A stretch of DNA of 64,000 bases, taken from positions 1 to 64,000 of IMG/VR virus record IMGVR_UViG_3300005338_000001. The stretch is one strand, 5' to 3'. Of the stretch, positions 3,498 to 37,630 are shown one piece after another. The DNA is from a virus. The notes under the pieces were generated by a model. It saw only the letters and a program-made list of their open reading frames with translations, ran no database searches and was not told the origin of the DNA. The translations under genes were made by a program, and so were the position numbers. Numbering within the stretch: position 1 is the stretch's first letter; each line of letters begins with the position of its first letter.

Positions 3498-3699
3498 TCG
3501 AAAATGCTGGCCGCTTCCGTGAAGGTCATCGGCGCTTGTTGAGTCGCACTCTGTTCGCCTTGCGCAGATTCTTCAACGCAGCCCGGCGTTTTTTCACGGA
3601 CGTGCTGCTCCCGCCCTTCTGGCAAAACTCCTTGTGATTCATACATGGATGCTCTCGTAACCGTTTGCCAAGCGGTTGTCACGAACTCTTTTCAACTTT

Positions 3700-24453: not shown

Positions 24454-26238
24454 TTAAGGCGGAACGGGTTTCGGATACGCGACGTAGATGATCGTGAATT
24501 TCCACAGCCGATGATTGTAGCGTTCGTGCTTCACCGCCGCCACAATGTAGGTGTCGCCATCGGTCGGCACGACAGGCGGCACGGTAGCTGAAATGGATGG
24601 CGTGTAGTAAATCCACTCAGCCGCACTGGCCGGAATCGCCACGTTAATGGAAGCTGCGGGATGGATGGTGGCGGGAATCGTGAAGGTACGCTCATTCGCG
24701 ATGGCGCGGCCACCACCAGCCTTCGCCAGAATGGCAATCGCGGTAATGGCCTGCGGCGAGAACAGCGTTACCTTCGGAAGCGCTGCAAGGAACGCCGTGT
24801 CTGTCGGATTGGAGGTGTAGCGCTCGAAGAAGGAAGCCGGACATGGCCCTCGGTATCCCTGCTCGATCTGCGCTTCCAGCGCCACGTCTGCCGCAATGGA
24901 GTCCCCGTCTGCCACGTAAGCGTGATACCATGTCAGGTCGCGAAGGCTGTCCGGCCAGCTATACTCGTATGTTCCCAGCGTGTGGATGTCCTTGCTGCCG
25001 TCTTGGTGCAGCATCCAGTCCAAGTCAGCAACATCAGCGGATGAAACGATCCGCACACTCCGCAGCCCGTCCATGCCCATCGGCTTGTACTCGATGGAAA
25101 CGCCATCACCAGCCGCGATCATCTCAGCGGTCAGTAACGCAGCGGTGGCCGGCACGGCTGACTGCGCGACGATCTGTTTCGTGATGCGTACTGCCGTGAA
25201 GGTCTGCTGATCGAGGTCGCTCTCGGGAATCAGCGGCCCATAGACCGGCTCGTAGATGCGGGTCAGCGCAACGATCTGGCCCTTCTCATTCTCGTAACTC
25301 TGATCCAGCAACTTGACGAAGTAGCCGACCGTCATGGTCAGTCCCGAATGCGATCCGGTGGCCGCTTGGCTGAGCGTCAGCGTCGTGGTGCTGTCGATGC
25401 TGACAATCGTGGTGCCTGCCGGGATGTCGGTGCCGGTCACGAGTCCGCCCGCGTACCGGCCTCCGGTGCTCGCGACCGTGAGGCTGGTGGTGCCGTGGGT
25501 GGAGACGCCTGTCAGCGTTGAGGTGAGGCCAAAGGTGCCGGCAGTGAAGCCGATAATCGGGCAGATGTCGGACAGCGGAGTTCCGAATGCCTGTGACGTA
25601 TTGGGGATGCGCCATGTAATTCTTGGCCATGCAGTCAACCCAAATGGCGTTTCGATCCGGTAGCCGAATCCATGCGCTTCCGCAGCGTCGTCCTCGTCGG
25701 ACAAATCCGGGATGTGCTCGAACACGCGCTTCACTCGAACGTAAATCGAATCGATCCTCGGGTCGCCAGTCTGCTCGGTCAACTGGTCCGATTCAATCAG
25801 CGTGGAATCAGGAAATACAGGGTTGCCTTCAACATCCAGTTGCGGATCGGCAGTCCCAAGTGCCAGCGGCCCGTCTCGCAGCCAGTCGTCTCGCCGCATG
25901 ATGTAGGTGCGTTCAATGCGAGGGAATCGCGCGGGTCCGTAAGGCGCGGAAACCTCAAAATTATACGAGTCCTGATCCGTAAGGTCTTTGGTGTAAACCA
26001 ACAGCATCCAGCCCACGCCCACCGAGTCGTCAGGCTTGATCAGCGACAGGATGTGCTCGGGAAACTTGACGGTATCGGGATGAGCCTCGCCGTACTCGGG
26101 CGGCTTCGGCCTGCTCGTGATCGTGTCGGAGTTCAGGTACCGATAAACGAAGAAGTCCGCGAGATTCTTCGTGCCGTATCCCGCCACGTAGCTGACGCCT
26201 GGAATCGGCCATTGCTGTTGCGTCGGAGGTGTCGGCAT
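24454..26238 (-). CDS. Putative virion structural (tail/baseplate-like) protein
   Basis: Start reassigned to ATG 26238; beta-rich, internal repeats (PYG..FPRI / PFG..WPRI) and a Thr/Gly-rich inserted domain (VTGTDIPAGTTIVSIDS...LTLSQAAT). Confidence 0.55.
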   Translation of the reverse strand: MPTPPTQQQWPIPGVSYVAGYGTKNLADFFVYRYLNSDTITSRPKPPEYGEAHPDTVKFPEHILSLIKPDDSVGVGWMLLVYTKDLTDQDSYNFEVSAPYGPARFPRIERTYIMRRDDWLRDGPLALGTADPQLDVEGNPVFPDSTLIESDQLTEQTGDPRIDSIYVRVKRVFEHIPDLSDEDDAAEAHGFGYRIETPFGLTAWPRITWRIPNTSQAFGTPLSDICPIIGFTAGTFGLTSTLTGVSTHGTTSLTVASTGGRYAGGLVTGTDIPAGTTIVSIDSTTTLTLSQAATGSHSGLTMTVGYFVKLLDQSYENEKGQIVALTRIYEPVYGPLIPESDLDQQTFTAVRITKQIVAQSAVPATAALLTAEMIAAGDGVSIEYKPMGMDGLRSVRIVSSADVADLDWMLHQDGSKDIHTLGTYEYSWPDSLRDLTWYHAYVADGDSIAADVALEAQIEQGYRGPCPASFFERYTSNPTDTAFLAALPKVTLFSPQAITAIAILAKAGGGRAIANERTFTIPATIHPAASINVAIPASAAEWIYYTPSISATVPPVVPTDGDTYIVAAVKHERYNHRLWKFTIIYVAYPKPVPP

Positions 26239-26270
26239 CGCCGTGCCTGTAGCCGAGATGCAAGGCTGCG

Positions 26271-26477
26271 TCAATCCACGAATTCGCGACGCAGCGCGAC
26301 AGTCGGCTTCACGCGGCCCGGAAACCGAACAGCAATCGACTCCGATGCATCGTTTCGTCTGATGCCCGGCCACTGTTCCTGCACTTCGGAATCGTCAGGG
26401 CGCAGGACTTCGACTTCCGTTCCTGCCGGATACATCACTCCGCCAAGCTTGCCGCCATATTTTGTCCTGAGTGTCAT
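26271..26477 (-). CDS. Hypothetical protein
   Basis: 68-aa ORF co-directional with the structural block. Confidence 0.45.
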   Translation of the reverse strand: MTLRTKYGGKLGGVMYPAGTEVEVLRPDDSEVQEQWPGIRRNDASESIAVRFPGRVKPTVALRREFVD

Positions 26478-26732
26478 GATGAGGAAATTGGACTGGCGCA
26501 GGAATTGGAGTCCCGTGCACCAGCATGGCCGCAAAGCCACAGCGTCCCGTTACCAGATGCGTGCCGCCGCGTCAACGCCTCAGTTTCAGGTTGACGCGGT
26601 TGCGGTGGCTGTGCAGAGTTGCGACAGGTGGACCTGCAAGTGGCCATCGGGATAAAATCCGAGACACGGGCAGGCGTTAAGGCTTACGGTGAAACGCCGT
26701 TATTGAGCCGAGCCGCAAGCCGCCTCCCTAAT

Positions 26733-26804
26733 CGCGGGTTAATTCATCGGCAGAAATCTGGCCTCATAATCCGGAAGTAGTGGGTTCAATTCCCACACCC
26801 GCAA
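26733..26804 (+). tRNA. tRNA-Met(CAT), initiator (fMet)-like
   Basis: Acceptor CGCGGGT/ACCCGCA with C1:A72 mismatch, loop CT-CAT-AA, T arm GTGGG-TTCAATT-CCCAC, discriminator A; no encoded CCA. Confidence 0.85.
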
Positions 26805-26854
26805 CCCCTCTGCGAACTTCCTTGCATCCGCCGCCGTTGCGACGAAGATACGGA

Positions 26855-27064
26855 ATGATTACTTCGCTGCTGTTCATTTTGCTCTACGCACTCGTCGCGC
26901 TGCTCTGCCTCCTGCTCGTCTTCTACATCGTCGAGCTTTTCATCGCCATCCCGCCGCAGATCAAGAAAATCATCTACGCCATTGTCGGCGTCCTGCTGCT
27001 CATCCAGATCGTCCAGCTTTTCGTGGGCGGGTCGCTCTGGTTTCCGCTGCCGATGCGCAGGTAG
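26855..27064 (+). CDS. Small two-helix membrane protein (possible holin or exclusion protein)
   Basis: 69 aa, two hydrophobic segments separated by PPQIKK, basic C-terminus. Confidence 0.65.
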   Translation: MITSLLFILLYALVALLCLLLVFYIVELFIAIPPQIKKIIYAIVGVLLLIQIVQLFVGGSLWFPLPMRR

Positions 27065-27114
27065 CGCTGCTGGTGTTCCTGTTTGCGGCGCTCGGCATCA
27101 GGCTGCCGTGACGG

Positions 27115-27609
27115 TCAGTAGTGGATTTTAGGCGTCATCTGAGGTCCGATTGAAAAACTCGGATAGGCGCGGAGGAATTCTTGCGGGTTCTGTGCGCGCT
27201 GCATTGCTCGCCACTGTTTCCTCGGCATTCCTTTTGGTCGTCCTGCTGAATTTCCGTTTTTCATCTTCGCCCTAGCCTGATCGCGAAGCTCCTGCCATCG
27301 ATCCTTTTTCCGGATCTTGTTTTGTCGCGGCTTGGACATGAAGTTGTTGGCGTAACGGTCGCGCAGCTCAGCAGCATCCAGTGTGTCTGTTTTGTGCCGA
27401 TGAACCATTCGGTGACAAGCGTGGCACAGCAGCACCAAGTCCTTCAGGATCGTGTCGTACGGTGTTGCGCGATACTTCCAATGGTGACACTCCAGTTGCC
27501 TGTCTGTGCGGCAGATCACACAGGCGCGTTTGTACCGCGACAGGCATTGGATGCGAAGCTGTTGCCAGTGGTCGGTGGTGAGGTATTGCTGGTACTGCTG
27601 GGCGTTCAT
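27115..27609 (-). CDS. HNH endonuclease with basic C-terminal tail
   Basis: YL..DHWQQLR, CVIC, LECHHWKY, DLVLLCHACH..VH. Confidence 0.85.
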   Translation of the reverse strand: MNAQQYQQYLTTDHWQQLRIQCLSRYKRACVICRTDRQLECHHWKYRATPYDTILKDLVLLCHACHRMVHRHKTDTLDAAELRDRYANNFMSKPRQNKIRKKDRWQELRDQARAKMKNGNSAGRPKGMPRKQWRAMQRAQNPQEFLRAYPSFSIGPQMTPKIHY

Positions 27610-28250
27610 GGGATCACTTAAAACGAAGAAAGGAAAGAACAGGAAAAGCAAAAGCCCCCCCGAAAAGCTGAGCCGCTACCATGCGGAAAAGGAAAGAAAA
27701 AAAGAAGGAAAACCAGAACACCGCCACAGCGATGCTCGACGTTTTCGCTCTTGCTGGTACGCCAGTCCTGCCGATCCCGTTCCTGCCAGCGAACATCATC
27801 GCATTCAGGGCGGGGTAGAACTTAGTTACCCTCTACGCTTGGGCTGGCTGTAGCGACGCCCTTTCGCCGGGATTTACATGACCGGCAACGTGGTTCGTGC
27901 CGTTCCCTGAATTGTGATCTGAACGCGGCCTCAACGCCAAGCCATTGCCCTAGCCCGGCCACTGAGCGCTCAGTGTAGGCATCGGATCGCCGTGGGAATT
28001 ATACCCACCGCCAGATCACAATTCAAAGAACGGATTTGCATTGGCGTCATCCAAGTCGTGCCCCAAAAAGAGGGAGTGCCGTACAAAGAGAAAGCCGCAG
28101 CGCGATTAGGGCGGGCTGCGGCTTTTCTACAGGATACTCGTCCTGCTAAGCATCTGGCTCGGGCCTTGCGGCAGTTGCCAAAGTTAAGAAAGTCTTGTGT
28201 TCGCGCCCTAATCGCGATGCTGCAAAGAACTGCCGTCACTCTGCCTCACG
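27610..28250 (-). ncRNA. Putative structured non-coding RNA / leader upstream of the HNH gene
   Basis: 22-bp inverted repeat 27900-27921/28012-28033 whose two mismatches are U-G wobbles on the minus strand; internal hairpins; no convincing ORF. Confidence 0.55.
28085..28127 (-). terminator. Terminator/attenuator hairpin AAAGCCGCAGC-loop-GCTGCGGCTTT followed by a T-rich tract
   Basis: 11-bp stem; its loop is complementary to 28204-28216. Confidence 0.7.
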
Positions 28251-28293
28251 CACCGCACCGGCGCAAGCATTTTCTCAGAAAAGTTTCGGCGCG

Positions 28294-28494
28294 CTATTCT
28301 TCGTCCCCGTAATCACCGCCCCAGCGGTCTGTGTCATCGCTGTCGTCGTCCAGCACCGCCTTGATGAGCCGATGCTGCTCCACCTGCAAGACTCCGATGG
28401 CCGACGCCAATGAAAGCTGGAACTCATGGCAGTAGCGCGTCACGAGTTTTGAAAGGTCCGCCTCGAAGGCGATGATTTGTTCGCGCTCAGTCAT
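28294..28494 (-). CDS. Hypothetical protein with acidic tail
   Basis: ATGA-coupled to the upstream ORF. Confidence 0.55.
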   Translation of the reverse strand: MTEREQIIAFEADLSKLVTRYCHEFQLSLASAIGVLQVEQHRLIKAVLDDDSDDTDRWGGDYGDEE

Positions 28495-29367
28495 GCGGTT
28501 GCCGTTTCTAGTCTCTTTGCGCCGATGAGCTGCCGCTGAATCCAGATCACCTTGATGACGGTCTTGCCGTTACCGCTGCGCTGGTGGCGAAAGTGTCCGC
28601 GACGCCAATGAATGCGGCGGTGCCCGTGCTCGTTGTCGCCTGCGTCGCCGATAACCGCTTCTGGCTTCCGATACGCGCGGCCAATGAAGTTCGGACTCCA
28701 CAGTTCGCACTGCTTTTTCTTTTTGTGCTCCTTTGCTTCGCGGACCTGAACGCCGGTTTCAATGAACTCAGGGCACGCCAGCATCCCAAGGATCAGTTGC
28801 AGCGCCGACTTCGGAATGCTCTTGCTCGCGAACAATTCCTCCTCGGGATTCATCGCCTCTCCATCGTTCTGTCCGTAATCCAATCCGAACCCGTGAACGG
28901 TTGCGTTTGAAGCTTCGGAAATTGCGGTGCTGTCGAGCGGACTTTCCCAAGTGAAAATCTTCCCGCTGGATGCGAGGGCTACGATGATCATCGTTTCGCG
29001 TCTCTCGTGAACGGGCCAGTTTGTGATGATGGATTTTTGCAGGAACGGATTACTCCACAGCGGTTGTTCAAACGCATACGTGCGACCCGGTTCAGTCTTG
29101 ATGACCGCCATCAGGTTGATGTGCCCGCATGGGCAGAGAAGCATTCCATGAGGCAGCGCAAACAGCATCGCCGGAAACGGCCACGGCATTTCTTCCATCG
29201 AGAAGTCAGCCGGAAGGTCTGTGTTGATGAGCGATTGAAACAGGTCTGCCGCCACAAAGAATGTAGGCACCTCAAAATCATTGAGCGCCCGGATCGCCTT
29301 CAGGACGGTGCCTCCCGTGTCGCGACTGAACGCAGTGCGATCAACAGCGTGTTCATCGGTGAACTCC
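28491..29367 (-). pseudogene. Phage hypothetical protein (C-terminal HWRRGHFRHQ motif), 5' end cut by the IS1-family element
   Basis: The reading frame runs into the IS left IR at 29368; the predicted start at 29405 lies inside the IS. Confidence 0.6.
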
Positions 29368-29433
29368 GGTCGTGTATCATTTTGAAAGATTTGCGGACTC
29401 GCCACGGTGCGGCGTCTGTGTCAGACGTGAGGG

Positions 29434-29550
29434 ATGAACACGAAGCTCAAGGGTAAGAAATTCGATCTCGCACAGCTCGGAAAAGCGATTGTGGATGCGG
29501 CGACCAAGCCCGCGAAGAAGCGTGCCGCGCGGAAAGTTGCAAAGCGCTGA
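29434..29550 (+). CDS. 38-aa basic peptide MNTKLKGKKFDLAQLGKAIVDAATKPAKKRAARKVAKR
   Basis: ORF just inside the IS left end, with GAGGG upstream; below the ORF-track cut-off. Confidence 0.5.
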   Translation: MNTKLKGKKFDLAQLGKAIVDAATKPAKKRAARKVAKR

Positions 29551-29651
29551 TTCGATTCGATCTCAGCGATCCCACTTGTTCGGCTTCATGACCGATAGGA
29601 ACGGCAGCCACAGCAGCACCAGAGGCGCTACAAGGATGGTGACGAGGGTTT

Positions 29652-29954
29652 TCACTTGTTCGGAGACTGCTGCGCCGTCAGCCGCTTGGCGAGCAGGAAC
29701 AGTCCGATGGCGACTGCGGCGCCGATCGCAACGACGATGCCTTGGACGAGTTCGGTGAAGTAGCCGGTTGAGTGGTACGGATGGAAGATGGATTGCGGGA
29801 CAAACTTCTGGCCGTGTCCGTCCGCGACCGCTGTGCCGTCTGGCGTGACGGTAAAGACCAGAAAGGCCAAGCACGCGTACCACGCTGTCCACAGGCCGGC
29901 CACGGCGGACACGATGTAGCAGCAGACTGCGAGAATCAGGCGGAGCGGTTTCAT
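29652..29954 (-). CDS. Two-TM membrane protein (IS cargo)
   Basis: Two hydrophobic segments; directly downstream of the protease. Confidence 0.6.
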   Translation of the reverse strand: MKPLRLILAVCCYIVSAVAGLWTAWYACLAFLVFTVTPDGTAVADGHGQKFVPQSIFHPYHSTGYFTELVQGIVVAIGAAVAIGLFLLAKRLTAQQSPNK

Positions 29955-29961
29955 GCGGCAA

Positions 29962-30783
29962 CTACCTCGCGAGCGTCAGCGGCATCAGGGTTGATCCGGA
30001 TTTGCGCCAAAGCCAGAGTGGCACATCTGCCGGCACCGCAAAGTTGAGCATCTGGCCTCGGATGAAATGAGACCTGACAACTGCCACAACCTTGCCACTG
30101 GCATCAATCACCGGGCCGCCGCTTGAACCGGGAGAGATGGCAGCGGTGATTTGCAGCATCTCATGCTCATCCTCATCCGTCCGTGTTCCGGAAACGATCC
30201 CTTCCGTGATTGAGAATTCAAAGCCCAGGGGATTGCCGATCACTGCAATGCGGGTGCCCGGAGCAACGCGGGTTGCATCGCTCAACTCTAAAAACGAGTG
30301 GTTTCTTCCGCCAGTGGAAAGCACCGCGATGTCGTAGTCCTTGTGCAGAGCGATTGCACCAGCCACGTTGTACACATCGCCGTTGATCGTCTTCACTGTG
30401 GCTGTGTGCGCGCCCTCCACCACGTGAAAGTTGGTCACCAGCAATCCGTCCTCGGAAATGAAGAAACCGGATCCGGTAGCGGTCTTTCTTCCAAATACGT
30501 CAAAGACAGAAATCCGCACAACCGCTCTGCTCGCGTCTTCAAAAATGCGCGCAGTGTCGAACGGTCGCGACGGCTTCTCAGCGCGGACAGGCGCAGGCGT
30601 CTCGGCAGCCGAAGCGGTTTCCTTGACTGGCGTTGCGTTGTTCCCCGAGTCCTGCCGCAGCGCTCCGATGACCAGCACTAGGGCAATCAGTCCGCCAGCA
30701 ACCCAGCAAGCAATCTGCACCCGCTGATTCAAGCGTTCTGCGGGAGGAGTCTTTCGCAAAATTACCTTCGGTACTCTTCTCAT
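29962..30783 (-). CDS. Membrane-anchored trypsin-like (S1C/HtrA-type, no PDZ) serine protease
   Basis: TM helix, GSGFFI..LVTNFHVV (His), YDIAVL (Asp), ISPGSSGGP (Ser). Confidence 0.9.
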   Translation of the reverse strand: MRRVPKVILRKTPPAERLNQRVQIACWVAGGLIALVLVIGALRQDSGNNATPVKETASAAETPAPVRAEKPSRPFDTARIFEDASRAVVRISVFDVFGRKTATGSGFFISEDGLLVTNFHVVEGAHTATVKTINGDVYNVAGAIALHKDYDIAVLSTGGRNHSFLELSDATRVAPGTRIAVIGNPLGFEFSITEGIVSGTRTDEDEHEMLQITAAISPGSSGGPVIDASGKVVAVVRSHFIRGQMLNFAVPADVPLWLWRKSGSTLMPLTLAR

Positions 30784-31121
30784 GGCATCTGTGGTGCTCT
30801 GAAAACGAGCGGCGCGGTCACCGCATCCCGCCGAGGCACCTGAGAGAGCCAGCACGGTAATGACAGCGACCGCGCCTATCCGGCGCGATGGCTGCAAAGG
30901 ACCGTGCGTGAAAATTCTCAGGTTTTCGGCGGGCCGTTCGCAGAACGCGAAATTGAATGTTGTTGTCCGCTGAAATCAGCCAACGCAAGCGGTTGCGTCA
31001 ACACAAGAATCACTGGAAGCGCTTGGAGAGATTCGTTCGGCTTTTAGCGTCACGTTTTTGGGTTGCGAAAAGAGTTGCAAAAAAGAGTTGCGTAGGTCCG
31101 CAACACCTGTATCATGCCCTC

Positions 31122-31553
31122 ATGAACGAAGACGATTTTGACTCTCAGATTCAACGCGACATCACTGCGATGGAAACGGAATTACGCGACCTTCAGCGCG
31201 CACTCGATGCAGCACGAACGTATCGTGCGCTCCGTCGCAAAAAGGGCGGCGTGAAATCGCCGACCATGACCCCCGATCCGATGCTGCCGCTGACTGCAAA
31301 TCACACAGCGAAGAACGGCAGCAACAAGAAACAGACCGCCGCGAAGGCGATCCGCGAAGCCATTGCATCGTGTGCGACCGACTACACGGTTTACGATCTG
31401 GGGCGCATCCTCGCGGCGCGCGGCACGCCAGTTGGCCGGCCTGCACTCTCACAGTTCCTGTCCCGGCTTTTGAAGGACAAGGAAATCACCCTCAAGACTC
31501 CGGGCAAAGGTCCGAAACCAAACGTCTTCACCAAGGAGGTAACAACCACGTAG
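31122..31553 (+). CDS. Coiled-coil plus winged-HTH-like DNA-binding protein (IS cargo)
   Basis: N-terminal coiled coil, C-terminal YTVYDL...ALSQFLSRLLKDKEI...GKG; start reassigned to ATG 31122 behind TTGCGT-N16-TATCAT. Confidence 0.6.
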   Translation: MNEDDFDSQIQRDITAMETELRDLQRALDAARTYRALRRKKGGVKSPTMTPDPMLPLTANHTAKNGSNKKQTAAKAIREAIASCATDYTVYDLGRILAARGTPVGRPALSQFLSRLLKDKEITLKTPGKGPKPNVFTKEVTTT

Positions 31554-31594
31554 AAAAAGCGAACCCGGCGAGCGCTGAAACGCCTGCCGGGTTC
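31554..31594. terminator. GC-rich hairpin with an A-tract on its 5' side, between the DNA-binding gene and the tRNA
   Basis: GAACCCGGC...GCCGGGTTC stem. Confidence 0.55.
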
Positions 31595-31599
31595 TAATT

Positions 31600-31672
31600 G
31601 TCGTAGTAGCTCAATGGATAGAGCACCTGTCTGCTAAACGGGAGGTTGCTGGTTCGAGACCAGCCTACGACG
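31600..31672 (+). tRNA. tRNA with anticodon GCT (Ser) on a class I, Arg-like body
   Basis: GTCGTAG/CTACGAC acceptor, GCTC-AATGGATA-GAGC D arm, CCTGT-CTGCTAA-ACGGG anticodon arm, 5-nt variable loop AGGTT, GCTGG-TTCGAGA-CCAGC T arm, G73. Confidence 0.88.
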
Positions 31673-31761
31673 CAACTAACAAACCAGCGGTTGCCCGCCA
31701 GCCTGCACATTGACACGCGCAAGGTAACGACGGGACCGCTTAAAAGCAAGCACAAAATCCC

Positions 31762-32613
31762 ATGAACAAACTCGACCGTTCCAAGCGCGCGCAAATCCTG
31801 CGCTGTCTCACTGAAGGCACTTCCATTCGTGCCGCTGCACGCCTCACCGACTGCGCGATCAACAGCGTGGTGAAACTCCTGATTCAAGCGGGCCGCGCCT
31901 GCACGGAGTATCAGGATCGCACACTCCGAAAACTCAACTGCCAGAGGCTGCAACTCGATGAGGTTTGGAGCTTCGTTTATTGCAAGGAAAAGAACGCCAC
32001 TGCGGAAGAAAAAGCCGCTGGCGCTGGCGACGCGTGGACGTGGACGGCACTCGACGCGGACTCAAAGGCAATCGTCGGCTGGTTTGTCGGCCCGCGCAAC
32101 GCGCGCTCGGCATTCCATTTCATCGGCGACCTTGTTGATCGGATGGCTTCGCGCAAAGTGCAGATCACAACCGATGGATTGAGTCTCTACGTCAACCCCG
32201 TGCATTCGATGTTCTGTGGCGAGGCCGATTACGCGCAGTTGCAGAAAATCTACGGCACAGAGCCGATGCCGTCTGGCCGATACAGTCCCGCGCAATGCAT
32301 GGGGAGTCGTCGCGCTGTGCTCAACGGCAACCCCGATCCCGCACATGTTTCAACGTCCTACGTGGAACGCCAGCATTTGACGCTGCGCATGAACAACCGC
32401 CGCTTTACGCGCCTCACGAACGCCTTTTCAAAGAAGCTGCAAAACCTTGAGCACTCCGTTGCGCTCTACACGATGAGCTACAACTTCTGCAAGATTCACA
32501 GTTCGCACCGCGTCACTCCCGCAATGCAGCTTGGAATTGCGGATCACGTGTGGGAGACAGAAGAGATCGTTGACCTGATTGACGCTCTCGAAATGGCTGG
32601 AAATTCAAAATGA
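31762..32613 (+). CDS. IS1-family DDE transposase
   Basis: N-terminal HTH (EGTSIRAAARL), LQLDEVWSFV, ITTDG, SYVERQHLTLR; stop codon lies in the right IR. Confidence 0.88.
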   Translation: MNKLDRSKRAQILRCLTEGTSIRAAARLTDCAINSVVKLLIQAGRACTEYQDRTLRKLNCQRLQLDEVWSFVYCKEKNATAEEKAAGAGDAWTWTALDADSKAIVGWFVGPRNARSAFHFIGDLVDRMASRKVQITTDGLSLYVNPVHSMFCGEADYAQLQKIYGTEPMPSGRYSPAQCMGSRRAVLNGNPDPAHVSTSYVERQHLTLRMNNRRFTRLTNAFSKKLQNLEHSVALYTMSYNFCKIHSSHRVTPAMQLGIADHVWETEEIVDLIDALEMAGNSK

Positions 32614-32621
32614 TACACGAC

Positions 32622-33125
32622 CTAGAAATCAATGATGTTGTGAGAGGACAGGATGCTGACAGGAGGAAGATCGCAATCAACCAGAGCCATCCCCACATCT
32701 TCGGCATGTGCTTGCAGCAATGGCAGGCGCGTCGTAACCAGCATCTGGCAGTTCATGTAGGCCGCCTCCACCAGCACACGGACATCTTGGCGAGATCCAC
32801 CAGGCAGGACATTTCTTGCGAGGATTTTGCTCACGTGCATTTTGGTGACTGCTTTTTGAGTGTCCGTAAATGCCGGGCAATCGCAATCACTGTCCTCAAT
32901 TTCTTGCCGCACCAATCTGGCTCGTTCGCGTTGTTCCCTGTCTGCTGATTCCGTTTCTGTGGCTGCAATCTCCACAAGAACGGATGGACAGATGATGAGA
33001 TCGAGCCGGAGTTTTTTCCGGAGAACTTGGATTGCTTTCGTGTGATGCGAAATTCCAAACCGCTCCGCAAACAACACTTTCGTGTCAAGAGCAGCCCTAC
33101 GCGGCTGTTCTTGGGCAAGAGCCAT
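32622..33125 (-). CDS. PIN-domain-like protein, 3' end abutting the IS1 right IR
   Basis: ALDTKVL, ICPSVLVEI, DVRVLVEAA, MLVT motifs; the stop codon uses the terminal base of the IS. Confidence 0.6.
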   Translation of the reverse strand: MALAQEQPRRAALDTKVLFAERFGISHHTKAIQVLRKKLRLDLIICPSVLVEIAATETESADREQRERARLVRQEIEDSDCDCPAFTDTQKAVTKMHVSKILARNVLPGGSRQDVRVLVEAAYMNCQMLVTTRLPLLQAHAEDVGMALVDCDLPPVSILSSHNIIDF

Positions 33126-33255
33126 TTTCGGAACGAGCGTAGTTTTCCAACTGCGTCAACTGCTCATCGGTGTAGTCGCTGAGCCGCTCACGAACTTCGT
33201 CCAATTCGGCTCCGATGGCGCTCTCAAAAGCTTCTTCTGTTGGTGTCGTGTTCAT
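33097..33255 (-). CDS. 52-aa acidic protein overlapping the PIN gene start (possible antitoxin)
   Basis: MNTTPTEEAFESAIGAELDEVRERLSDY...; toxin-antitoxin-like arrangement. Confidence 0.45.
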   Translation of the reverse strand: MNTTPTEEAFESAIGAELDEVRERLSDYTDEQLTQLENYARSENGSCPRTAA

Positions 33256-33499
33256 GGTGTCGTGTTCTTAGCGAACAGTTCGCAAATCCTGCGAACTGGC
33301 GCAAGTAGAATGTAACATTTTTGTTTAAAAAAACTTTAAATTACCTCTGAAACAGTCCGAAAACGTCCCACAAAAGGTCCAAAAATGTTCCAGAAAAACT
33401 CCACTCTGTGAGAGCGGTTTTTTCCAGCGAAGAGAGATAGAATTTTGAGGCACGGCAACCCTCCATTCAAGCAGAGCCCGTTCCAAACGCCAGCACGTT

Positions 33500-34483
33500 T
33501 TACAGTCCACCCGTCGTGTCGTGCATCGTGAGCCGCTTTCCCTGTGCCTGTTTCAGTCCGGCAACCGTGCGTTCGCCGTCCGTTTCCTTCCGGCTGTTCC
33601 AGCGGAAATCGAACTCCGCGACGTAGCGCCCAAGGTGCTTGCGCGAGATGTGATGGAAGTTTCCGATCACGCCACGGCGCAAAAGCGAGAACGAGCTTTC
33701 CGCGTAGTTCGTGGAAACAACTTCGCCGTCCGGCTCGGTGCGCTGGTATTCGCGTTTCCCGCCAGCCTTTCCGTGCGTCACGAATTTGTGGCGGAAGTCC
33801 GCGCCGAGTTTCTTGTATCCGGGATGCTCGTCCGTGTGAATGGTGGAACCCGCCGCCACGTGCTCACACACGGCTTCGCGCAGGTTCTTGCCCGTCACGA
33901 TCTCGGAAAGCACAACGGAGCGGCGCTTGCCCGTCTGGCGCTCTACTAACGCCACGACGGCAGACTTTGATCCACGGCGGAATCCCTTGCCCTTCGTTTT
34001 CGGACCGTAGTAACACTCGTCAACCTCTACCATACCGTTCAGTTTTCCATCGGGAGTGACATCGGCCAGAGAGTGGCGGATGCGATGGCAGAGAAACCAC
34101 GCGGACTTGTAGGAGCCGAGTCCAAGGTGACGCTGCATCTGCTTTGCGCTCATTCCCTTTTTCGCACCGCTCATGAGATACCAAGCGATCAACCACTTAT
34201 CGAGGGTGATGTGCGAGTCTTCAAAAATCGTTCCCACCGTGACGCGGAAAGACTTTTTGCACTCTGCGCACTGGCGCAAGCCGACACGGATTTTCTTTTC
34301 TTTGTTCGCCGTGAGCTTCCAAATTTTCTCCGCGTCCGCGTTTCCGCAGTGCGGGCAAACGGGACCGTTTTTCCAGAGGATCGTTTCCATGTATTCGATG
34401 GCTTTCTCCTCTGTGGAGAAGCGCGCCATGATTTCGGGAAGCGTCAAATCTTCCGGCGTGAGAAACGTGTTGCTCTTGTTCAT
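33500..34483 (-). CDS. IS1595-family (ISXO2-like) transposase
   Basis: Zn ribbon CPHC/CAEC, TIFEDSH, VEVDECY, IHTDE, TNYAESSFSLLRR, YVAEFDFRWN. Confidence 0.92.
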   Translation of the reverse strand: MNKSNTFLTPEDLTLPEIMARFSTEEKAIEYMETILWKNGPVCPHCGNADAEKIWKLTANKEKKIRVGLRQCAECKKSFRVTVGTIFEDSHITLDKWLIAWYLMSGAKKGMSAKQMQRHLGLGSYKSAWFLCHRIRHSLADVTPDGKLNGMVEVDECYYGPKTKGKGFRRGSKSAVVALVERQTGKRRSVVLSEIVTGKNLREAVCEHVAAGSTIHTDEHPGYKKLGADFRHKFVTHGKAGGKREYQRTEPDGEVVSTNYAESSFSLLRRGVIGNFHHISRKHLGRYVAEFDFRWNSRKETDGERTVAGLKQAQGKRLTMHDTTGGL

Positions 34484-34530
34484 GCGCGAAGAATCTCACC
34501 GCGTAGAACAATTGTCAAGGGGATAATCCC

Positions 34531-35315
34531 GAAATGTTGTCGTAACGGTTGACGTAACCGCGAGCGACTTTTTGCAAATAGTCCTTTCGCTGATTCGCGA
34601 CCCGCTCATGGATTCTCGCCGCACGACTCGCTGCTTTCTTGCGACGGTTACTGCCTTTTGTTCGGCGGGCAATCATACGCTGCGCGATGCGCAGTGCCCT
34701 CAGTGTGTGTTTGAGGTGCCGTGGATTCTCAACCTTGTTGCCTTCACTGTCCGCGACCAGATGCTTGAGTCCGAAGTCCAATCCTACGCTCAGTCCTGTT
34801 TTTGGAAGTTCTTCGGTCTCAGTTGCGCACACGGCCTGCAAATACCAACCACTCGGCTTGTGAAGGATTCGGCAGAATTTGAGCACGCCATTGATGTCCC
34901 GATGCCGATTGAACCGGATGCGTCCCCCGAGCATCTTTCCGGCCTTGAAATAGCTTTCGGAAATCCCATTGCTTACGGCATCTCGGAACTGGATGGAATG
35001 CCATCGGTTCGCACCCTTGAAGCGCGGGAAGCCTTTCTTGTTCGCGCCCTCCTTGCAGCGCCGAAAGAAGTTCGCAAAAGAAACATGCAAACGCTTGAGT
35101 GTGGTATCCACAACCACGGCGGGAATCTCAGGATGCTCTTTGCTGCCGTGCTTTTTGTCCTGCGCGAAAAGGTTCATGTGCTTTCCGGTCGCCTTGTAGT
35201 GGGAAACCAGTTCCACCAGCGCGGAATTGTAGAGTTCCCGCGACAATCGCAGCGTCTTCCACAGCGCAGTTTCCTGCGACGGATTCGGCCTGAGACGAAA
35301 TTCGTAGGTGAGCAT
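34531..35315 (-). pseudogene. tnpB: TnpB (IS200/IS605 RNA-guided nuclease), truncated by the IS1595 insertion
   Basis: YEFRLRPN, LYNSAL, GFPRFK, RuvC-I VGLDFG, bridge helix GSNRRKKA; breaks at YDNI; RuvC-II/III and Zn finger absent. Confidence 0.88.
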
Positions 35316-35396
35316 CTTCGGCATGATGGCGCGCGCAAAAAGAAAGTGCAAGAAATATCTTGACCGTTTTTGGACCACCGTGGTAGATGTAGTCCC

Positions 35397-35558
35397 ATGC
35401 CGAAGAAAACTGCACGCAATTACGACGAGGATTACCGCGCCAGAATCCCCGCAACATTACTTCCGCCGCTGACGAAGCTCGCGCAAAAAGGCAGCCGCAA
35501 AGTTCCGCAGGAAGTGATTCTCGCGGTGTCCAACCACATCAAGCGTTCTGGAAAATGA
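35397..35558 (+). CDS. Ribbon-helix-helix (Arc-like) regulator
   Basis: YRARIP..LL..L..LA...RKV..EVI..V pattern; divergent from tnpB. Confidence 0.55.
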   Translation: MPKKTARNYDEDYRARIPATLLPPLTKLAQKGSRKVPQEVILAVSNHIKRSGK

Positions 35559-35809
35559 GCACCCCCACGACTCACGAACTGAAAACTTGGCCCGAGTTTT
35601 TCGAGCGCATTCTGGACGGCTCGAAACCGTTTGAGATTCGGCGCGGTGATCGCAACTTCAAAGTCGGCGACACGCTGCTGCTCAAGGAATGGAAGCCGAT
35701 GGCGCGCGAGTACACGGGCCGAGAGGTTCGCAAGGTCATCACCTACACACTGACCGGCATGGGCCTTGAAGCTGGCTTCATCGCGCTCGGACTCGCAACT
35801 GCACCATGA
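35555..35809 (+). CDS. ASCH/PUA-like (DUF3850-type) protein
   Basis: HELKTWPEFF..ILDGSKPFEIR..DRNFKVGDTL.L.EW. Confidence 0.85.
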   Translation: MSTPTTHELKTWPEFFERILDGSKPFEIRRGDRNFKVGDTLLLKEWKPMAREYTGREVRKVITYTLTGMGLEAGFIALGLATAP

Positions 35810-36246
35810 CCCCGCATCCTGACCCCTTGTCGCAGGAGACGAAGCGCATCCGGCTGGCGGAGGCGGCGGGCTGGCGATTTGTCAGAGCTACGTATCGCGG
35901 CAGATCCGTCTGCCCCAAAGAAGGACTGTCGCTACTGTGGTTTATCGACAAGGTTGAATCGAGTCGCGACTGGCTTGTCGAAGAAACAAGCGAGCGGCGT
36001 GATTTGGAGCCTCACGAAATCGACTGCCTTCCAGACTTCTTTGTCGATCTCAACGCGACGCACGCGCTGGAGAAGCTGCTGACGCCAGCGCAAGCGCAGA
36101 GCTACTTCCAGACCATTCGAAAAATCATTAGTGAACCGCCAGAAGGATCAGAAGTAACCATTTCCTGTTTCTACATCCACGCCAACGCCGCAACCCGCGG
36201 CGAAGCGCTAGGTTCGGCGCTCGGCCTCTGGCAGACGGGGCAGTAG
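35806..36246 (+). CDS. Hypothetical phage protein
   Basis: ATGA-coupled; LPDF..DLNA.HALEK motif. Confidence 0.6.
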   Translation: MTPHPDPLSQETKRIRLAEAAGWRFVRATYRGRSVCPKEGLSLLWFIDKVESSRDWLVEETSERRDLEPHEIDCLPDFFVDLNATHALEKLLTPAQAQSYFQTIRKIISEPPEGSEVTISCFYIHANAATRGEALGSALGLWQTGQ

Positions 36247-36260
36247 CGACACTCACCACT

Positions 36261-36428
36261 ATGACTAAAACACAAAAACTCATCACTGGATGGTTGATGC
36301 TACTCGCTGCCGCTATTCTCATCGCAACTGGATTCGGACTCGTTTTTGGAGTGTCTGGAGTCTGCATTTCGCTTGGAGTCACATTGGTGTTTTACGCCAT
36401 CGGATTCTTCGCAGGAGCCGACGTATGA
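36261..36428 (+). CDS. Small hydrophobic membrane protein (55 aa)
   Basis: MTKTQKLITGWLMLLAAAILIATGFGLVFG...; stop overlaps the RusA start. Confidence 0.5.
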   Translation: MTKTQKLITGWLMLLAAAILIATGFGLVFGVSGVCISLGVTLVFYAIGFFAGADV

Positions 36429-37015
36429 ACAAGGACACCGAGCACCAGATCCAGCGCAACGAAGCCGAGCGCAAGCTGCGGGACGCCGATGCGCTGATCC
36501 TCGCAGCGCGGTTTCCGAACATGAGCCGCAGTTGCCGCGCGGCGAACATCTCTCACGAAATTCCATCAGGCGCATCAGTAGCGGGCAACCGCGAAGGCAA
36601 AGCGAGCGCCGCCACAGCCAGCAGTGCCGCTCCGGGTAATCGGGCCGGGGGCGGCGGCAAGCTGGTGTTGCGACTCGTCGGGCAGGTTCGCGGGGGCAAG
36701 AACGCGATGGGTGTTACGAAGACAGGTAAGCACTACGCACGTACTGCGTTCAAGAAATGGCGCGCTGACATGGCCTCGCAAATTCGTGCGCAGTTACCAC
36801 CTTACGCGCCGATTGTCGAGCCGTGCAAACTTCGGATCGACTACGTTGCCGGTGACGGTAAACGGCGCGATCAGACCGGAATTTTCGATGCGCTGTTCCA
36901 TCTGCTTGAACACACCCGCGTCATACTCGACGACAGTCTTTTGTGGGTCACAGAATCCACTAAATCGTACGATAAGAAAAGCCCCGGCGTCACCATCACG
37001 TTTTTGAATCCATGA
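36425..37015 (+). CDS. rusA: RusA-like Holliday junction resolvase
   Basis: GKN, RRD...DAL, VILDDSL and K.Y.K..PGVTITF motifs; active-site region diverged. Confidence 0.7.
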   Translation: MNKDTEHQIQRNEAERKLRDADALILAARFPNMSRSCRAANISHEIPSGASVAGNREGKASAATASSAAPGNRAGGGGKLVLRLVGQVRGGKNAMGVTKTGKHYARTAFKKWRADMASQIRAQLPPYAPIVEPCKLRIDYVAGDGKRRDQTGIFDALFHLLEHTRVILDDSLLWVTESTKSYDKKSPGVTITFLNP

Positions 37016-37515
37016 ACACCGACCCCGACCCCGACCCCGCCTCCGCCACCAGCGCCAGCACTGAAGCCGCGCCTCGCAACCGCTGCAACTGCCCGCAGTG
37101 CCAGACCGACGACTGCCCGGCTGGAATCGAGTTGGCCGCGGCGGTTGCTGAACTGTGTACCGTGGCACACGAACACGACAAACTGCGCGACAAATTCTTC
37201 TCGCATCCTGCCGTGCTCGATCTGAACCAGCGCCTCGTCTCAGCAGAACTGGATGCGTGGCGCGTCCTGATGCTGTACGGCGCTACGCCCGAGATCGTCC
37301 ACGCCTTCATCCGCGGCCAGCAGGATCGCATCTGTTGCTGTGAGGGCATCGAATCCGCACTGGAGCGCGTCCTTGCGGCCCTGCGGCTGTGCCGTGACGC
37401 GCTGAACCAGACAGTGTGGGGCGGCGAGGTATCCGATGATGCTGTGTCGGCGGCGAACATCTGCGCCGTCACCGCAGCGGACGCCGTGCTGGACGGCGCG
37501 AAGGAGGAGGCGTGA
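37012..37515 (+). CDS. Hypothetical protein
   Basis: ATGA-coupled; N-terminal CNCPQC. Confidence 0.55.
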   Translation: MNTDPDPDPASATSASTEAAPRNRCNCPQCQTDDCPAGIELAAAVAELCTVAHEHDKLRDKFFSHPAVLDLNQRLVSAELDAWRVLMLYGATPEIVHAFIRGQQDRICCCEGIESALERVLAALRLCRDALNQTVWGGEVSDDAVSAANICAVTAADAVLDGAKEEA

Positions 37516-37630
37516 AGCGCAGGAAATCGAAACTGGAAATCGGGTGGCAGATACTGGCTGCGTGCTTCATTACTGAAGCTGCGCTCGTCGTAATCAGTAC
37601 CGTTCGTACTATTTGGATGAAACTTAACTT

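What the first reader, a model, noticed from the sequence alone, without database searches (positions are those of the whole stretch)
31600..31672. Transposon-borne tRNA with a Ser anticodon on an Arg-identity body: candidate Ser-to-Arg mistranslator
Seen: an intact cloverleaf (7-bp acceptor, 4-bp D stem, A15-U48, perfect T arm) with anticodon GCU and a variable loop of only 5 nt. Established: bacterial SerRS recognises the long variable arm and ignores the anticodon, while ArgRS reads A20, C35 and U/G36 and accepts G73. This tRNA has A20 (D loop AAUGGAUA), C35, U36 and G73. Inference: it would be charged with Arg but decode AGC/AGU Ser codons, making it a missense tRNA carried on a mobile element. 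It could instead be a decoy for anticodon nucleases or a processing signal. The intact stems argue against simple decay.
Basis: partly seen in the sequence, partly recalled or inferred. Interest (0 to 1): 0.9.

Follow-up and report, generated by a model that had tools for sequence, protein, structure and literature searches.

The report
Transposon-borne arginine-type tRNA reading serine codons
A jumping gene inside a phage genome carries a well-formed tRNA built like an arginine tRNA but with the anticodon for the serine codons AGC/AGU. The same odd tRNA recurs in related jumping genes from several bacterial phyla, so it is a kept passenger that may put arginine where serine belongs, though charging and decoding are untested.

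Summary
Window 31600-31672(+) is an intact class-I tRNA (Rfam 66 bits; ARAGORN) with anticodon GCU and a 5-nt variable loop. It has the full bacterial arginine identity set: A20, C35, U36 and G73.

It lies inside a 3,255-bp IS1-family cargo transposon with perfect 19-bp inverted repeats. That transposon sits in a 78.5-kb phage contig.

It is not an assembly error or a one-off. An Arg-type GCU tRNA sits 90-200 nt upstream of a homologous IS1 transposase in five other elements, from three bacterial phyla and viral contigs. Two of these were found without asking for GCU. In four of the five, as in the window, the stems differ by compensatory changes. No slot tRNA in the sample has a standard Arg anticodon.

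In an anticodon-blind sample of 122 related IS1 loci, 9 distinct elements carry a tRNA in this slot. Most are odd decoders, such as Leu-type ochre suppressors.

AGC/AGU still mean serine in the phage and transposase genes, so the code is unchanged. There is no antisense partner RNA here.

Charging by ArgRS and Ser-to-Arg miscoding follow from published identity rules but are untested.

This scan found the same kind of tRNA before on other DNA (e1-1341954, e1-5935001 and others). I found no publication describing it.

The parts
29368..29386 (+). Left terminal inverted repeat of the IS1-family element (GGTCGTGTATCATTTTGAA; the end fits GGnnnTG)
   Evidence: It pairs perfectly over 19 bp with 32604-32622. 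Homologous IRs (GGTNGTGNNTCANTTTG) bracket related elements. The flanking bases differ (GAACTCC versus TAGAAAT), so there is no target duplication.
29563..29961 (-). Passenger ORF of 132 aa, Arg-rich with a hydrophobic C-terminus
   Evidence: ORF list and translation. No family search was done on it.
29962..30897 (-). Passenger gene: trypsin-like serine protease, 311 aa
   Evidence: Pfam Trypsin_2 at E 4.4e-31. PHROG 11383 and 9683, protease.
30957..31553 (+). Passenger gene of 198 aa, directly upstream of the tRNA on the same strand. It is a probable DNA-binding regulator by position and by analogy with the HTH genes in sister elements.
   Evidence: ORF. No Pfam or PHROG hit. L067 has a 201-aa ORF in the same place that is not alignable by BLASTP. 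L101 and L122 have small HTH-like ORFs there.
31561..31594 (+). GC-rich hairpin ending 5 nt before the tRNA. It has no good T tract, so it is not a canonical terminator.
   Evidence: Inverted repeat I13. Fold. Not called by the terminator scan. A comparable hairpin precedes the slot tRNA in L067, L094, L101, L122, L149, L163, L166, L196 and L213.
31600..31672 (+). Class-I tRNA with an Arg(UCU)-type body and anticodon GCU
31762..32613 (+). IS1-family DDE transposase, 283 aa, single ORF
   Evidence: More than 8000 homologues, the best non-self at 71% identity, many named IS1 family transposase and carrying PF03400. For the window protein itself Pfam PF03400 scores 22.9 bits, just under the cut-off of 24.1. 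D66, D138 and E202 are invariant in alignment A1.
32604..32622 (-). Right terminal inverted repeat

Best explanation
Shown: the sequence is a genuine, structurally intact tRNA of the arginine (UCU) type whose wobble base is G instead of U. It is carried as a passenger in the cargo slot, between the left end and the transposase gene, of an IS1-family transposon that has landed in a phage genome. The combination 'Arg-type body + GCU + IS1 slot' recurs in divergent elements, so it is maintained and not accidental.

Inferred mechanism:
1. The tRNA is transcribed, probably at a low level by read-through from the upstream passenger gene across the hairpin.
2. It is cut out by RNase P and given CCA by the host enzyme.
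3. Host ArgRS charges it with arginine, because ArgRS reads A20, C35, U36 and A/G73 and not position 34.
4. It then competes with the host's long-armed tRNA-Ser(GCU) at AGC and AGU codons. The result is proteome-wide, sub-stoichiometric Ser-to-Arg substitution.

The benefit to the transposon is unknown. The most economical guess is a regulated proteome-perturbing or stress-inducing payload. That would be the same logic as the Leu-type ochre-suppressor tRNAs that sister elements carry in the same slot.
For: Structure and identity
- Cloverleaf and tRNA score.
- The Arg identity set (A/G73, A20, C35, U/G36 for bacteria, PMC9976931 Table 1) is fully present.
- Body type: 13 of 13 viral tRNAs matching its D and T arms with a free anticodon are Arg(UCU). 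The nearest annotated GenBank phage tRNAs are mostly tRNA-Arg.

Transposon
- 19-bp perfect IRs enclose the tRNA.

Recurrence
- IS1 transposases 44-50% identical to the window's lie 164-198 nt downstream of an Arg-type GCU tRNA, on the same strand, in L067 (Bradyrhizobium MAG), L094 (Flavipsychrobacter MAG) and L101 (Acidimicrobiia MAG). L067 has homologous IRs around the tRNA and transposase.
- Anticodon-blind finds: L196 (viral contig) and L234 (Pseudomonadota genome). L234 has C33 and C55, so it may be degenerate.
- Acceptor stems differ in sequence but are fully paired in the window, L067, L094, L101 and L196.
- On 20 full-form GCU tRNAs, 98.1% of cells pair, 17 of 21 pairs show double changes, and 0 of 500 shuffles reach this.

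Extra gene, not a mutated host gene
- Host genomes G002 and G003 also hold a separate normal Arg(UCU) gene. The IS-borne copy is 66-70% identical to it.

Spread across the transposase tree
- GCU-linked transposases are scattered over the tree, with at least 2 gains or losses forced, so divergent elements keep or re-acquire this tRNA.

Sister cargo
- Leu-type tRNAs with anticodon UUA sit in the same slot in L149 (a 1.32-kb element holding only tRNA and transposase) and in L166-169. Established knowledge, from memory: bacterial LeuRS ignores the anticodon. These tRNAs would therefore also be charged yet misread.
Against: - Nothing about transcription, maturation, charging or decoding was measured.
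- No sigma-70-like promoter was found in the element, and the hairpin ends only 5 nt before the tRNA.
- The element does not protect itself. 7 of 20 Ser codons in its transposase are AGY, including the invariant Ser175 and the conserved Ser70. AGY makes up 40% of Ser codons in the phage genes.
- Only 22 of 65 parsed GCU/A20 tRNA-like sequences in other genomes keep a full acceptor stem. At least part of the wider family therefore cannot depend on aminoacylation.
- Class-I GCU tRNAs without A20 also exist in viral contigs: 5 sequences without A20 against 6 distinct A20-type sequences.
- The closest transposase relative (L114, 68% identity) has no tRNA.
- The covariation may partly be inherited from ordinary tRNA-Arg ancestors.
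Confidence: 0.45

Rival explanations
1. The tRNA acts as a non-decoding tRNA-shaped RNA element. In one version it is an RNase P/Z processing or insulating signal that separates the upstream cargo transcript (left with a protective 3' hairpin) from the transposase message. In another version it is a decoy or ligand for a protein or RNA that recognises the Arg-type D loop and the GCU loop. Aminoacylation is irrelevant in either case.
For: - A hairpin followed by a tRNA is a constant feature of the slot in all tRNA-bearing elements examined.
- The transposase usually has its own promoter-like TTGAC...palindrome downstream of the tRNA.
- The slot also holds tmRNA-acceptor-like mini elements in L211, L213 and L123, and tRNAs of many kinds.
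- 43 of 65 GCU/A20 look-alikes elsewhere lack a full acceptor stem yet keep perfect D, anticodon and T arms.
Against: - A mere processing signal gives no reason to keep GCU and A20 together in elements whose transposases are only 44-54% identical.
- It gives no reason for every IS1-linked copy with a standard anticodon loop to keep a fully paired 7-bp acceptor stem and an A/G discriminator.
- A harmless standard tRNA would serve as well, yet anomalous decoders dominate the slot.
Confidence: 0.3
2. The tRNA is a neutral or decaying hitch-hiker: a phage or host tRNA-Arg(UCU) gene captured by the transposon that later suffered a U34-to-G mutation (or an assembly error) and is silent or on its way to loss.
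For: - It is a single-base difference from a normal Arg(UCU) anticodon loop.
- No promoter was detected.
- The sister element L114 has no tRNA.
- L234 shows C33 and C55, as expected for decay.
- The record is a single metagenome-derived contig and the reads could not be checked.
Against: - GCU recurs in six IS1-linked copies from independent samples and three phyla (window, L067, L094, L101, L196, L234).
- No IS1-slot tRNA in the sample has a standard Arg anticodon.
- Stems have diverged by compensatory changes while staying paired.
- The window copy has no defect in any conserved tRNA position.
Confidence: 0.12
3. The tRNA is the poison half of an RNA poison-and-antidote pair: a harmful tRNA held in check by a neighbouring small RNA complementary to its anticodon arm. 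Earlier agents of this scan proposed this for other GCU tRNAs.
For: - Earlier notes e1-1341954, e1-4508579 and e1-1577399 (unchecked leads) describe such a partner RNA.
- In L101 a stretch 1.9 kb upstream (808-828) is 18/21 complementary to the anticodon arm.
Against: - No complement exists in this contig. The best match to the 21-nt arm is 15/21, the same as for shuffled arms.
- No match to a 17-nt probe with up to 3 mismatches in the window.
- No exact complement of 9 nt or more within 700 nt of the tRNA in the window, L067, L094, L101 or L122.
Confidence: 0.04
4. AGC/AGU are reassigned to arginine in this phage or element, or the element's own genes need the tRNA to restore Arg at AGY codons.
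For: - One AGT codon of the transposase (Ser141, next to the catalytic Asp138) falls in a column that is Lys or Arg in most homologues.
- L196 has one such codon as well.
Against: - In the terminase, AGY codons align to Ser 0.40 and Arg 0.05. UCN codons give Ser 0.42 and Arg 0.06.
- AGY encodes invariant Ser175 and conserved Ser70 of the transposase.
- AGY at R/K columns is 2 of 32 in GCU-linked transposases against 9 of 586 in the others. The numbers are too small to count, and the excess is explicable by single-base AGR-to-AGY changes.
Confidence: 0.03

Closest known systems
Bacterial tRNA-Arg(UCU), for example E. coli argU and the phage tRNA-Arg(UCU) genes of L001-L013
   Same: Class-I body. 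D loop with G18 G19 A20 U20a A21. C35, U36, A37 and an A/G73 discriminator. A nearly identical T arm. The anticodon loop differs at one base only.
   Different: G34 instead of U34, so the codons read would be AGC/AGU (Ser) and not AGA/AGG. It is carried inside an IS element rather than in a tRNA array or a chromosomal tRNA locus.
Dual-identity mistranslating tRNAs tRNA-ProX (ProA, ProN, ProT) of Streptomyces and Kitasatospora (PMC10404621; review PMC11415595)
   Same: A natural bacterial tRNA that joins the body of one amino acid to the anticodon of another and is kept in several lineages. The published cases were shown to mistranslate and to be toxic in E. coli.
   Different: No dedicated synthetase isoform lies next to it. 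Arg identity is kept through C35/U36 themselves, so the ordinary ArgRS should suffice. The carrier is a transposon or phage. Nothing has been tested experimentally.
IS1-family insertion sequences with passenger genes (single-ORF or ISMhu11-like group as I recall it from ISfinder; memory only, no paper was retrievable)
   Same: DDE transposase homologous to IS1. Terminal IRs starting GGnnnTG. Lengths of 1.3-4.5 kb, with cargo between the left end and the transposase.
   Different: The cargo includes a tRNA gene, which I could not find described. There is no target-site duplication at this copy.
Phage-encoded tRNAs: suppressor tRNAs linked to stop-codon recoding (PMC9523058) and anticodon-loop variants proposed to evade host tRNA nucleases (PMC10264068)
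   Same: A tRNA gene in a phage genome with a non-standard decoding property.
   Different: It is a sense-codon miscoder, not a suppressor. The phage shows no recoding. The tRNA belongs to an inserted IS rather than to the phage backbone. Its loop is a normal 7-nt loop.
This scan's earlier 'Arg-type tRNA(GCU) with anti-anticodon partner RNA' cassette (e1-1341954, e1-4508579, e1-1577399) and 'transposon-borne Arg-type tRNA, Ser anticodon' (e1-5935001)
   Same: The same kind of tRNA (Arg body, GCU, short variable loop) on mobile DNA. e1-5935001 also describes a regulator, structured RNA and tRNA cassette in a transposon inside a phage.
   Different: No partner RNA exists at this locus.

Membership tests
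Bacterial tRNA-Arg | A20 in the D loop (the main ArgRS determinant) | tested here: met
   The D loop is AAUGGAUA, which reads G18 G19 A20 U20a A21. The rule is from PMC9976931.
Bacterial tRNA-Arg | C35 and U/G36 | tested here: met
   The anticodon loop is CUGCUAA.
Bacterial tRNA-Arg | A/G73 discriminator | tested here: met
   G73.
Bacterial tRNA-Arg | An anticodon that reads Arg codons (ACG, CCG, UCU or CCU) | tested here: not met
   The anticodon is GCU, which pairs with AGC/AGU.
Bacterial tRNA-Arg | Aminoacylation by ArgRS | not testable with these tools
   Needs an in vitro charging assay.
Bacterial tRNA-Ser | Long variable arm (class II), the SerRS determinant | tested here: not met
   The variable loop is 5 nt and the tRNA is 73 nt long.
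Bacterial tRNA-Ser | A Ser anticodon | tested here: met
   GCU.
IS1 family insertion sequence | DDE transposase homologous to IS1 InsB | tested here: met
   More than 8000 homologues, many carrying PF03400 or named IS1 family. The window protein itself scores 22.9 bits against a cut-off of 24.1.
IS1 family insertion sequence | Terminal inverted repeats beginning GGnnnTG | tested here: met
   GGTCGTG... at both ends, 19/19. The motif is shared by 70 fetched loci. The consensus itself is recalled from memory.
IS1 family insertion sequence | Target-site duplication (8-9 bp in classical IS1) | tested here: not met
   The flanks are GAACTCC and TAGAAAT.
Dual-identity mistranslating tRNAs (tRNA-ProX type) | Body of one isotype joined to the anticodon of another | tested here: met
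Dual-identity mistranslating tRNAs (tRNA-ProX type) | A dedicated synthetase isoform encoded alongside | tested here: not met
   No synthetase lies in the element. Three of its four ORFs were scanned (Pfam/PHROGs): protease, unassigned 198-aa protein and transposase; the 132-aa ORF is too short to be one.
Dual-identity mistranslating tRNAs (tRNA-ProX type) | Demonstrated mistranslation | not testable with these tools
   Needs a reporter assay or mass spectrometry.
Arg-type tRNA(GCU) plus anti-anticodon partner RNA (earlier scan finding) | A neighbouring sequence complementary to the anticodon arm | tested here: not met

The most novel reading that the evidence does not exclude
A clade of IS1-family transposons serves as a vehicle for decoding-altering tRNAs. 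Its cargo slot repeatedly carries tRNAs that host synthetases should still charge but that read the wrong codons. Examples are Arg-type GCU (Ser to Arg) and Leu-type UUA (UAA read as Leu), with further mismatched bodies and anticodons. Mobile elements would thus spread deliberate, probably regulated, mistranslation among bacteria and phages of many phyla.
Probability: 0.33. Interest if true: 0.9.

Novelty: new variant of a known kind. Interest (0 to 1): 0.72.

Why it matters
Natural tRNAs that deliberately miscode are known from very few bacterial cases, namely tRNA-ProX. Here a different identity/anticodon mismatch (Arg body, Ser anticodon) needs no special synthetase and rides on a transposon that moves between phages and bacteria of several phyla.

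If it is charged and used, it would be a mobile source of proteome-wide Ser-to-Arg substitution. Together with the ochre-suppressor tRNAs in sister elements, it would show that insertion sequences can carry translation-altering cargo.

It also matters for annotation. Standard tools label these genes tRNA-Ser.

The claim is directly testable with ordinary assays: charging in vitro, a reporter in a laboratory E. coli strain, and mass spectrometry.

Tried and rejected
- Close relatives of the phage: megablast of 26000-38000 against GenBank phages and PLSDB plasmids found nothing. Terminase relatives in IMG/VR are at most 41% identical. Read-level or strain-level confirmation of G34 was therefore impossible.
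- Exact tRNA pattern with a free anticodon in viral contigs: no other copy.
- The 198-aa upstream protein has no relatives in viral contigs. It has no BLASTP similarity to the equivalent ORF of L067.
- The transposase as a single query found nothing in viral contigs. An alignment query was needed.
- Antisense partner RNA: not present. A slower RNAduplex scan did not return.
- AGY-to-Arg reassignment: rejected.
- AGY avoidance by the element or the phage: none.
- Enrichment of AGY at Lys/Arg columns in GCU-linked transposases: 2 of 32 against 9 of 586, not convincing.
- The idea that slot suppressors rescue in-frame stops in transposases: the 'stops inside' reported are natural stop codons or plain pseudogenes without tRNAs.
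- Sigma-70 promoter scan of the element: none found.
- E. coli genomes: no similar tRNA.
- Integration-site (att) relic: rejected. The tRNA is whole, sits inside IS inverted repeats, and no integrase is nearby.
- Literature: seven searches found no description of an Arg-body GCU tRNA or of tRNA cargo in IS1 elements.

Full report
**The object.** ARAGORN finds two tRNAs in the window and in the whole 78,526-bp contig. One is a weak tRNA-Met(CAU) at 26732-26807. The other is the tRNA in question at 31600-31673(+), anticodon GCU. Rfam's tRNA model scores it at 66 bits against a gathering score of 29, E 3.9e-12.

The cloverleaf is complete:
- acceptor GTCGTAG/CTACGAC
- U8 and A9
- D stem GCUC/GAGC
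- D loop AAUGGAUA
- anticodon stem CCUGU/ACGGG, with one U-G pair
- anticodon loop C-U-GCU-A-A
- 5-nt variable loop AGGUU
- T stem GCUGG/CCAGC
- T loop UUCGAGA
- discriminator G73

CCA is not encoded. The free-energy fold reproduces the cloverleaf and a 13-bp hairpin that ends 5 nt upstream, z = -3.5.

**Which body it is.** The published bacterial arginine identity set is A/G73, A20, C35 and U/G36 (PMC9976931, Table 1 and the arginine section). All four are present. Position 34 is not in that set.

A scan of IMG/VR used this tRNA's D-arm and T-arm letters with the anticodon left free. It returned 13 loci, and all 13 are tRNA-Arg(UCU). They are up to 79% identical to the window tRNA, and their anticodon loop differs only at position 34. 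In GenBank phages the nearest annotated matches are mostly tRNA-Arg, with a few Asn or Gly.

A bacterial tRNA-Ser needs a long variable arm, which is absent here. The tRNA is therefore an Arg(UCU)-type tRNA with G34.

**Where it sits.** The record is a virus contig. It carries a large terminase, tail-fibre-like, HNH, RusA and methyltransferase genes.

The tRNA lies inside a 3,255-bp unit bounded by perfect 19-bp inverted repeats at 29368-29386 and 32604-32622. The right end of the unit holds a 283-aa single-ORF DDE transposase. That protein has more than 8000 homologues, many named IS1 family or carrying PF03400.

The other cargo is a 132-aa ORF, a trypsin-like protease and a 198-aa ORF that ends 8 nt before the hairpin. 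The flanks show no target duplication. An IS1595 element and a truncated IS605-type tnpB lie next door. 'Transposon-borne' is therefore right, and the transposon is inside a phage.

**Not an accident: recurrence.** A general pattern was scanned: the Arg-type D arm GGATAGAGC, the loop CTGCTAA, a 5-nt variable loop and GTTCGA. It matches 16 viral contigs and one genome in each of 51 bacterial species.

tblastn with the window's proteins against all these loci gave three hits. An IS1 transposase 44-50% identical to the window's lies 164-198 nt downstream of the GCU tRNA, on the same strand, in:
- L067, a Bradyrhizobium MAG
- L094, a Flavipsychrobacter MAG
- L101, an Acidimicrobiia MAG

In L067, 27-nt inverted repeats resembling the window's (GGGTCGTG..TCAGTTTGAA) enclose a basic small ORF, a 201-aa ORF, a hairpin, the tRNA and the transposase. 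In L109, a Mesorhizobium isolate, the same repeats enclose a GCU look-alike and a decayed transposase.

Those loci were found by asking for GCT, so I also sampled the transposon clade blind to the anticodon:
- 80 viral loci, from an alignment of five transposases
- 21 metagenome loci
- 13 Pseudomonadota genome loci
- 8 Actinomycetota genome loci

Nine distinct elements among these 122 loci have a tRNA 98-207 nt upstream of the transposase on the same strand. Two of the nine are again Arg-type GCU tRNAs:
- L196 has D loop AAAGGAUA and loop UUGCUAC, and sits inside inverted repeats at 945 and 4060.
- L234 has GGAUAGAGC, loop CCGCUAA and an encoded CCA, but also C33 and C55.

None of the nine has a standard Arg anticodon. 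The 13 ordinary Arg(UCU) tRNAs have no IS1 transposase nearby.

**Signs of maintenance.**
- The window, L067, L094, L101 and L196 tRNAs have five different acceptor-stem sequences. All are fully paired and all carry an A or G discriminator.
- On 20 full-form GCU tRNAs, 98.1% of cells pair. 17 of 21 pairs show changes on both sides. No shuffle or slid register comes close. Part of this covariation may be inherited from normal tRNA-Arg ancestors.
- Genomes G002 and G003 hold a separate ordinary Arg(UCU) gene. The IS-borne tRNA is only 66-70% identical to it, so it is an extra gene and not a mutated or recently captured host gene.
- On a quick maximum-likelihood tree of 96 transposases, the five GCU-linked ones are scattered. 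Four changes are needed and at least two are forced. The window's sister L114 (68% identity) has no tRNA. The tRNA is therefore either ancestral and often lost, or exchanged among elements. In both cases divergent elements keep it.

**What else rides in the slot.**
- L149 is a 1.32-kb element that holds nothing but a tRNA and the transposase. Its tRNA has a Leu-type class-II body (GUGGCGAAAUGGUAG.., A73) and anticodon UUA, which would read the stop codon UAA.
- L166-169 carry another tRNA of this kind.
- L122 has a class-I tRNA with the Ser anticodon GGA on a body with U73, G2-C71 and C3-G70.
- L163 has a Pro anticodon CGG on a body with U73, A37 and A20.
- L192 has AGU on a Glu-like D arm with C33.
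- L211 and L213 hold Gly(UCC), Tyr and class-II AUA tRNAs plus a tmRNA-acceptor-like mini element.

Anomalous decoders are the rule in this slot, which is not what phage tRNA sets normally look like. Two of the recurrent kinds share a logic: the cognate synthetase does not read the changed base. ArgRS does not read position 34. From memory, established knowledge: bacterial LeuRS does not read the anticodon. These tRNAs should be charged normally and decode wrongly. That is my main reason for ranking the decoding hypothesis first.

**Tests of other readings.**

Code change. In the terminase, the residues aligned to the window's AGY codons are Ser 0.40 and Arg 0.05. UCN codons give Ser 0.42 and Arg 0.06. 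In the transposase, AGY encodes the invariant Ser175 and the conserved Ser70. AGY therefore means Ser.

Self-protection. AGY makes up 40% of Ser codons in 30 phage genes and 7 of 20 in the transposase. There is none.

Self-licensing. Ser141 (AGT) lies three residues after the catalytic Asp138, in a column that is Lys or Arg in most homologues, and L196 has one similar case. Overall, however, 2 of 32 against 9 of 586 is not convincing.

Partner RNA. The best complement to the anticodon arm anywhere in the contig is 15/21, the same as for shuffled arms.

Expression. No sigma-70 consensus was found. The hairpin lacks a T tract, so read-through from the 198-aa gene is the likeliest source of transcripts. 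This is inference.

**Caveats for the decoding model.** In the wider set of 65 parsed GCU/A20 sequences only 22 keep a 7-bp acceptor stem. Two gut-virus families (12 contigs) and an alphaproteobacterial group keep perfect D, anticodon and T arms but pair only 2-5 acceptor positions. Class-I GCU tRNAs with other D loops also exist in viral contigs: 5 sequences against 6 distinct A20-type ones. Some members of this wider family must therefore work, if they work at all, without being charged. A structural or decoy role cannot be excluded for the window copy either.

**Comparison with what is known.** The closest published system is the tRNA-ProX family of Streptomyces and Kitasatospora. Those are proline bodies with Ala, Asn or Thr anticodons. 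They are encoded next to a special ProRS and have been shown to mistranslate (PMC10404621; PMC11415595).

The present tRNA shares the body/anticodon mismatch. It differs in three ways: it has no dedicated synthetase, it keeps the two anticodon bases its synthetase reads, and it travels on an insertion sequence.

Seven literature searches found no description of an Arg-body GCU tRNA or of tRNA cargo in IS1 elements.

Earlier agents of this scan reported the same kind of tRNA on other DNA. Their partner-RNA reading does not hold at this locus. Their transposon-in-phage cassette (e1-5935001) and IS1 cargo-slot description (e1-1424055) agree with what I found independently.

**Verdict.** The 'transposon-borne Arg-type tRNA with a Ser anticodon' is real, recurrent and maintained. 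Ser-to-Arg miscoding is the best-supported mechanism (about 0.45) but rests on identity rules alone. It is a new variant of the known kind 'natural dual-identity tRNA', and it would be of high interest if the charging and decoding tests come out positive.

Noticed in passing
L149:2018-3340 (IMGVR_UViG_3300019880_000009); also L166-L169:2281-2366: A minimal 1.32-kb IS1-family element, with IRs at 2018-2034 and 3324-3340, holds only a transposase and an 84-nt Leu-type class-II tRNA with anticodon UUA (a would-be ochre suppressor). A second such tRNA of 86 nt sits in the same slot in four identical viral loci.
   Followed up: partly
L122:774-847; L163:2329-2403; L192:2320-2394: Other IS1-slot tRNAs have bodies that do not fit their anticodons. 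L122 has GGA (Ser) on a class-I body with U73, G2-C71 and C3-G70. L163 has CGG (Pro) on a body with U73, A37 and A20. L192 has AGU (Thr) on a Glu-like D arm with C33.
   Followed up: partly
L211:2224-2291, L213:2322-2389, L123:3606-3675: Short tmRNA-acceptor-like elements (GGGGCUG ... GGUUCGAU.CCC..CAGCUCCAC, with a G3-U70 pair) lie between the slot tRNA and the IS1 transposase. Rfam calls them weak tRNA (L211, L213) or tmRNA (L123).
   Followed up: no
L047, L049, L051, L052, L055 and L050, L053, L054, L058-L060, L062 (viral contigs): Two families of tRNA look-alikes occur in 12 viral contigs. They have perfect Arg-type D arm, GCU anticodon arm and T arm, but only 2 of 7 acceptor positions pair, and the 3' side is a conserved CTTGATTAT. 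ARAGORN does not call them.
   Followed up: no
L095, L105, L106, L107, L109, L110 (Ancylobacter, Sphingomonas, Phenylobacterium, Mesorhizobium and Phyllobacterium, plus a Gammaproteobacteria MAG, L105): This is a mainly alphaproteobacterial group of GCU/A20 tRNA look-alikes in which positions 1-72 and 2-71 are always mismatched while 5 inner acceptor pairs covary. In L109 the look-alike lies inside IS1-type inverted repeats (4410 and 6920) together with a decayed transposase.
   Followed up: partly
L079:5838-5911 and 6396-6480; L097:7848-7920 and 7934-8004; L093:3582-3654 and 3660-3726: Arg-type GCU tRNAs or look-alikes sit next to other stop-codon-reading tRNA calls: UUA in L079, CUA in L097 and UCA in L093. 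This suggests clusters of recoding tRNAs.
   Followed up: no
L101:808-828: A 21-nt stretch 1.9 kb upstream of the IS1-linked GCU tRNA is 18/21 complementary to its anticodon arm. It may be chance, or a remote version of the partner RNA reported by earlier agents.
   Followed up: no
window 26732-26807: The phage's only other tRNA, Met(CAU), is weak: Rfam 43 bits, a 3-bp D stem and a mismatch in the acceptor stem. It lies near an HNH endonuclease gene (27115-27651, minus strand).
   Followed up: no
window 33500-35378: An IS1595 transposase gene (33500-34483, minus strand) abuts a 287-aa IS605-type OrfB/TnpB fragment (34515-35378, minus strand), right next to the IS1 element. This is a hot spot of nested insertions in the phage.
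   Followed up: no
L070 and L075; L074 and L087: Identical GCU look-alikes occur in two Candidatus Multivorans chromosomes. Another pair occurs in two Planctomycetota MAGs, next to an array of Leu, true long-armed Ser(GCU) and three Arg tRNAs.
   Followed up: no
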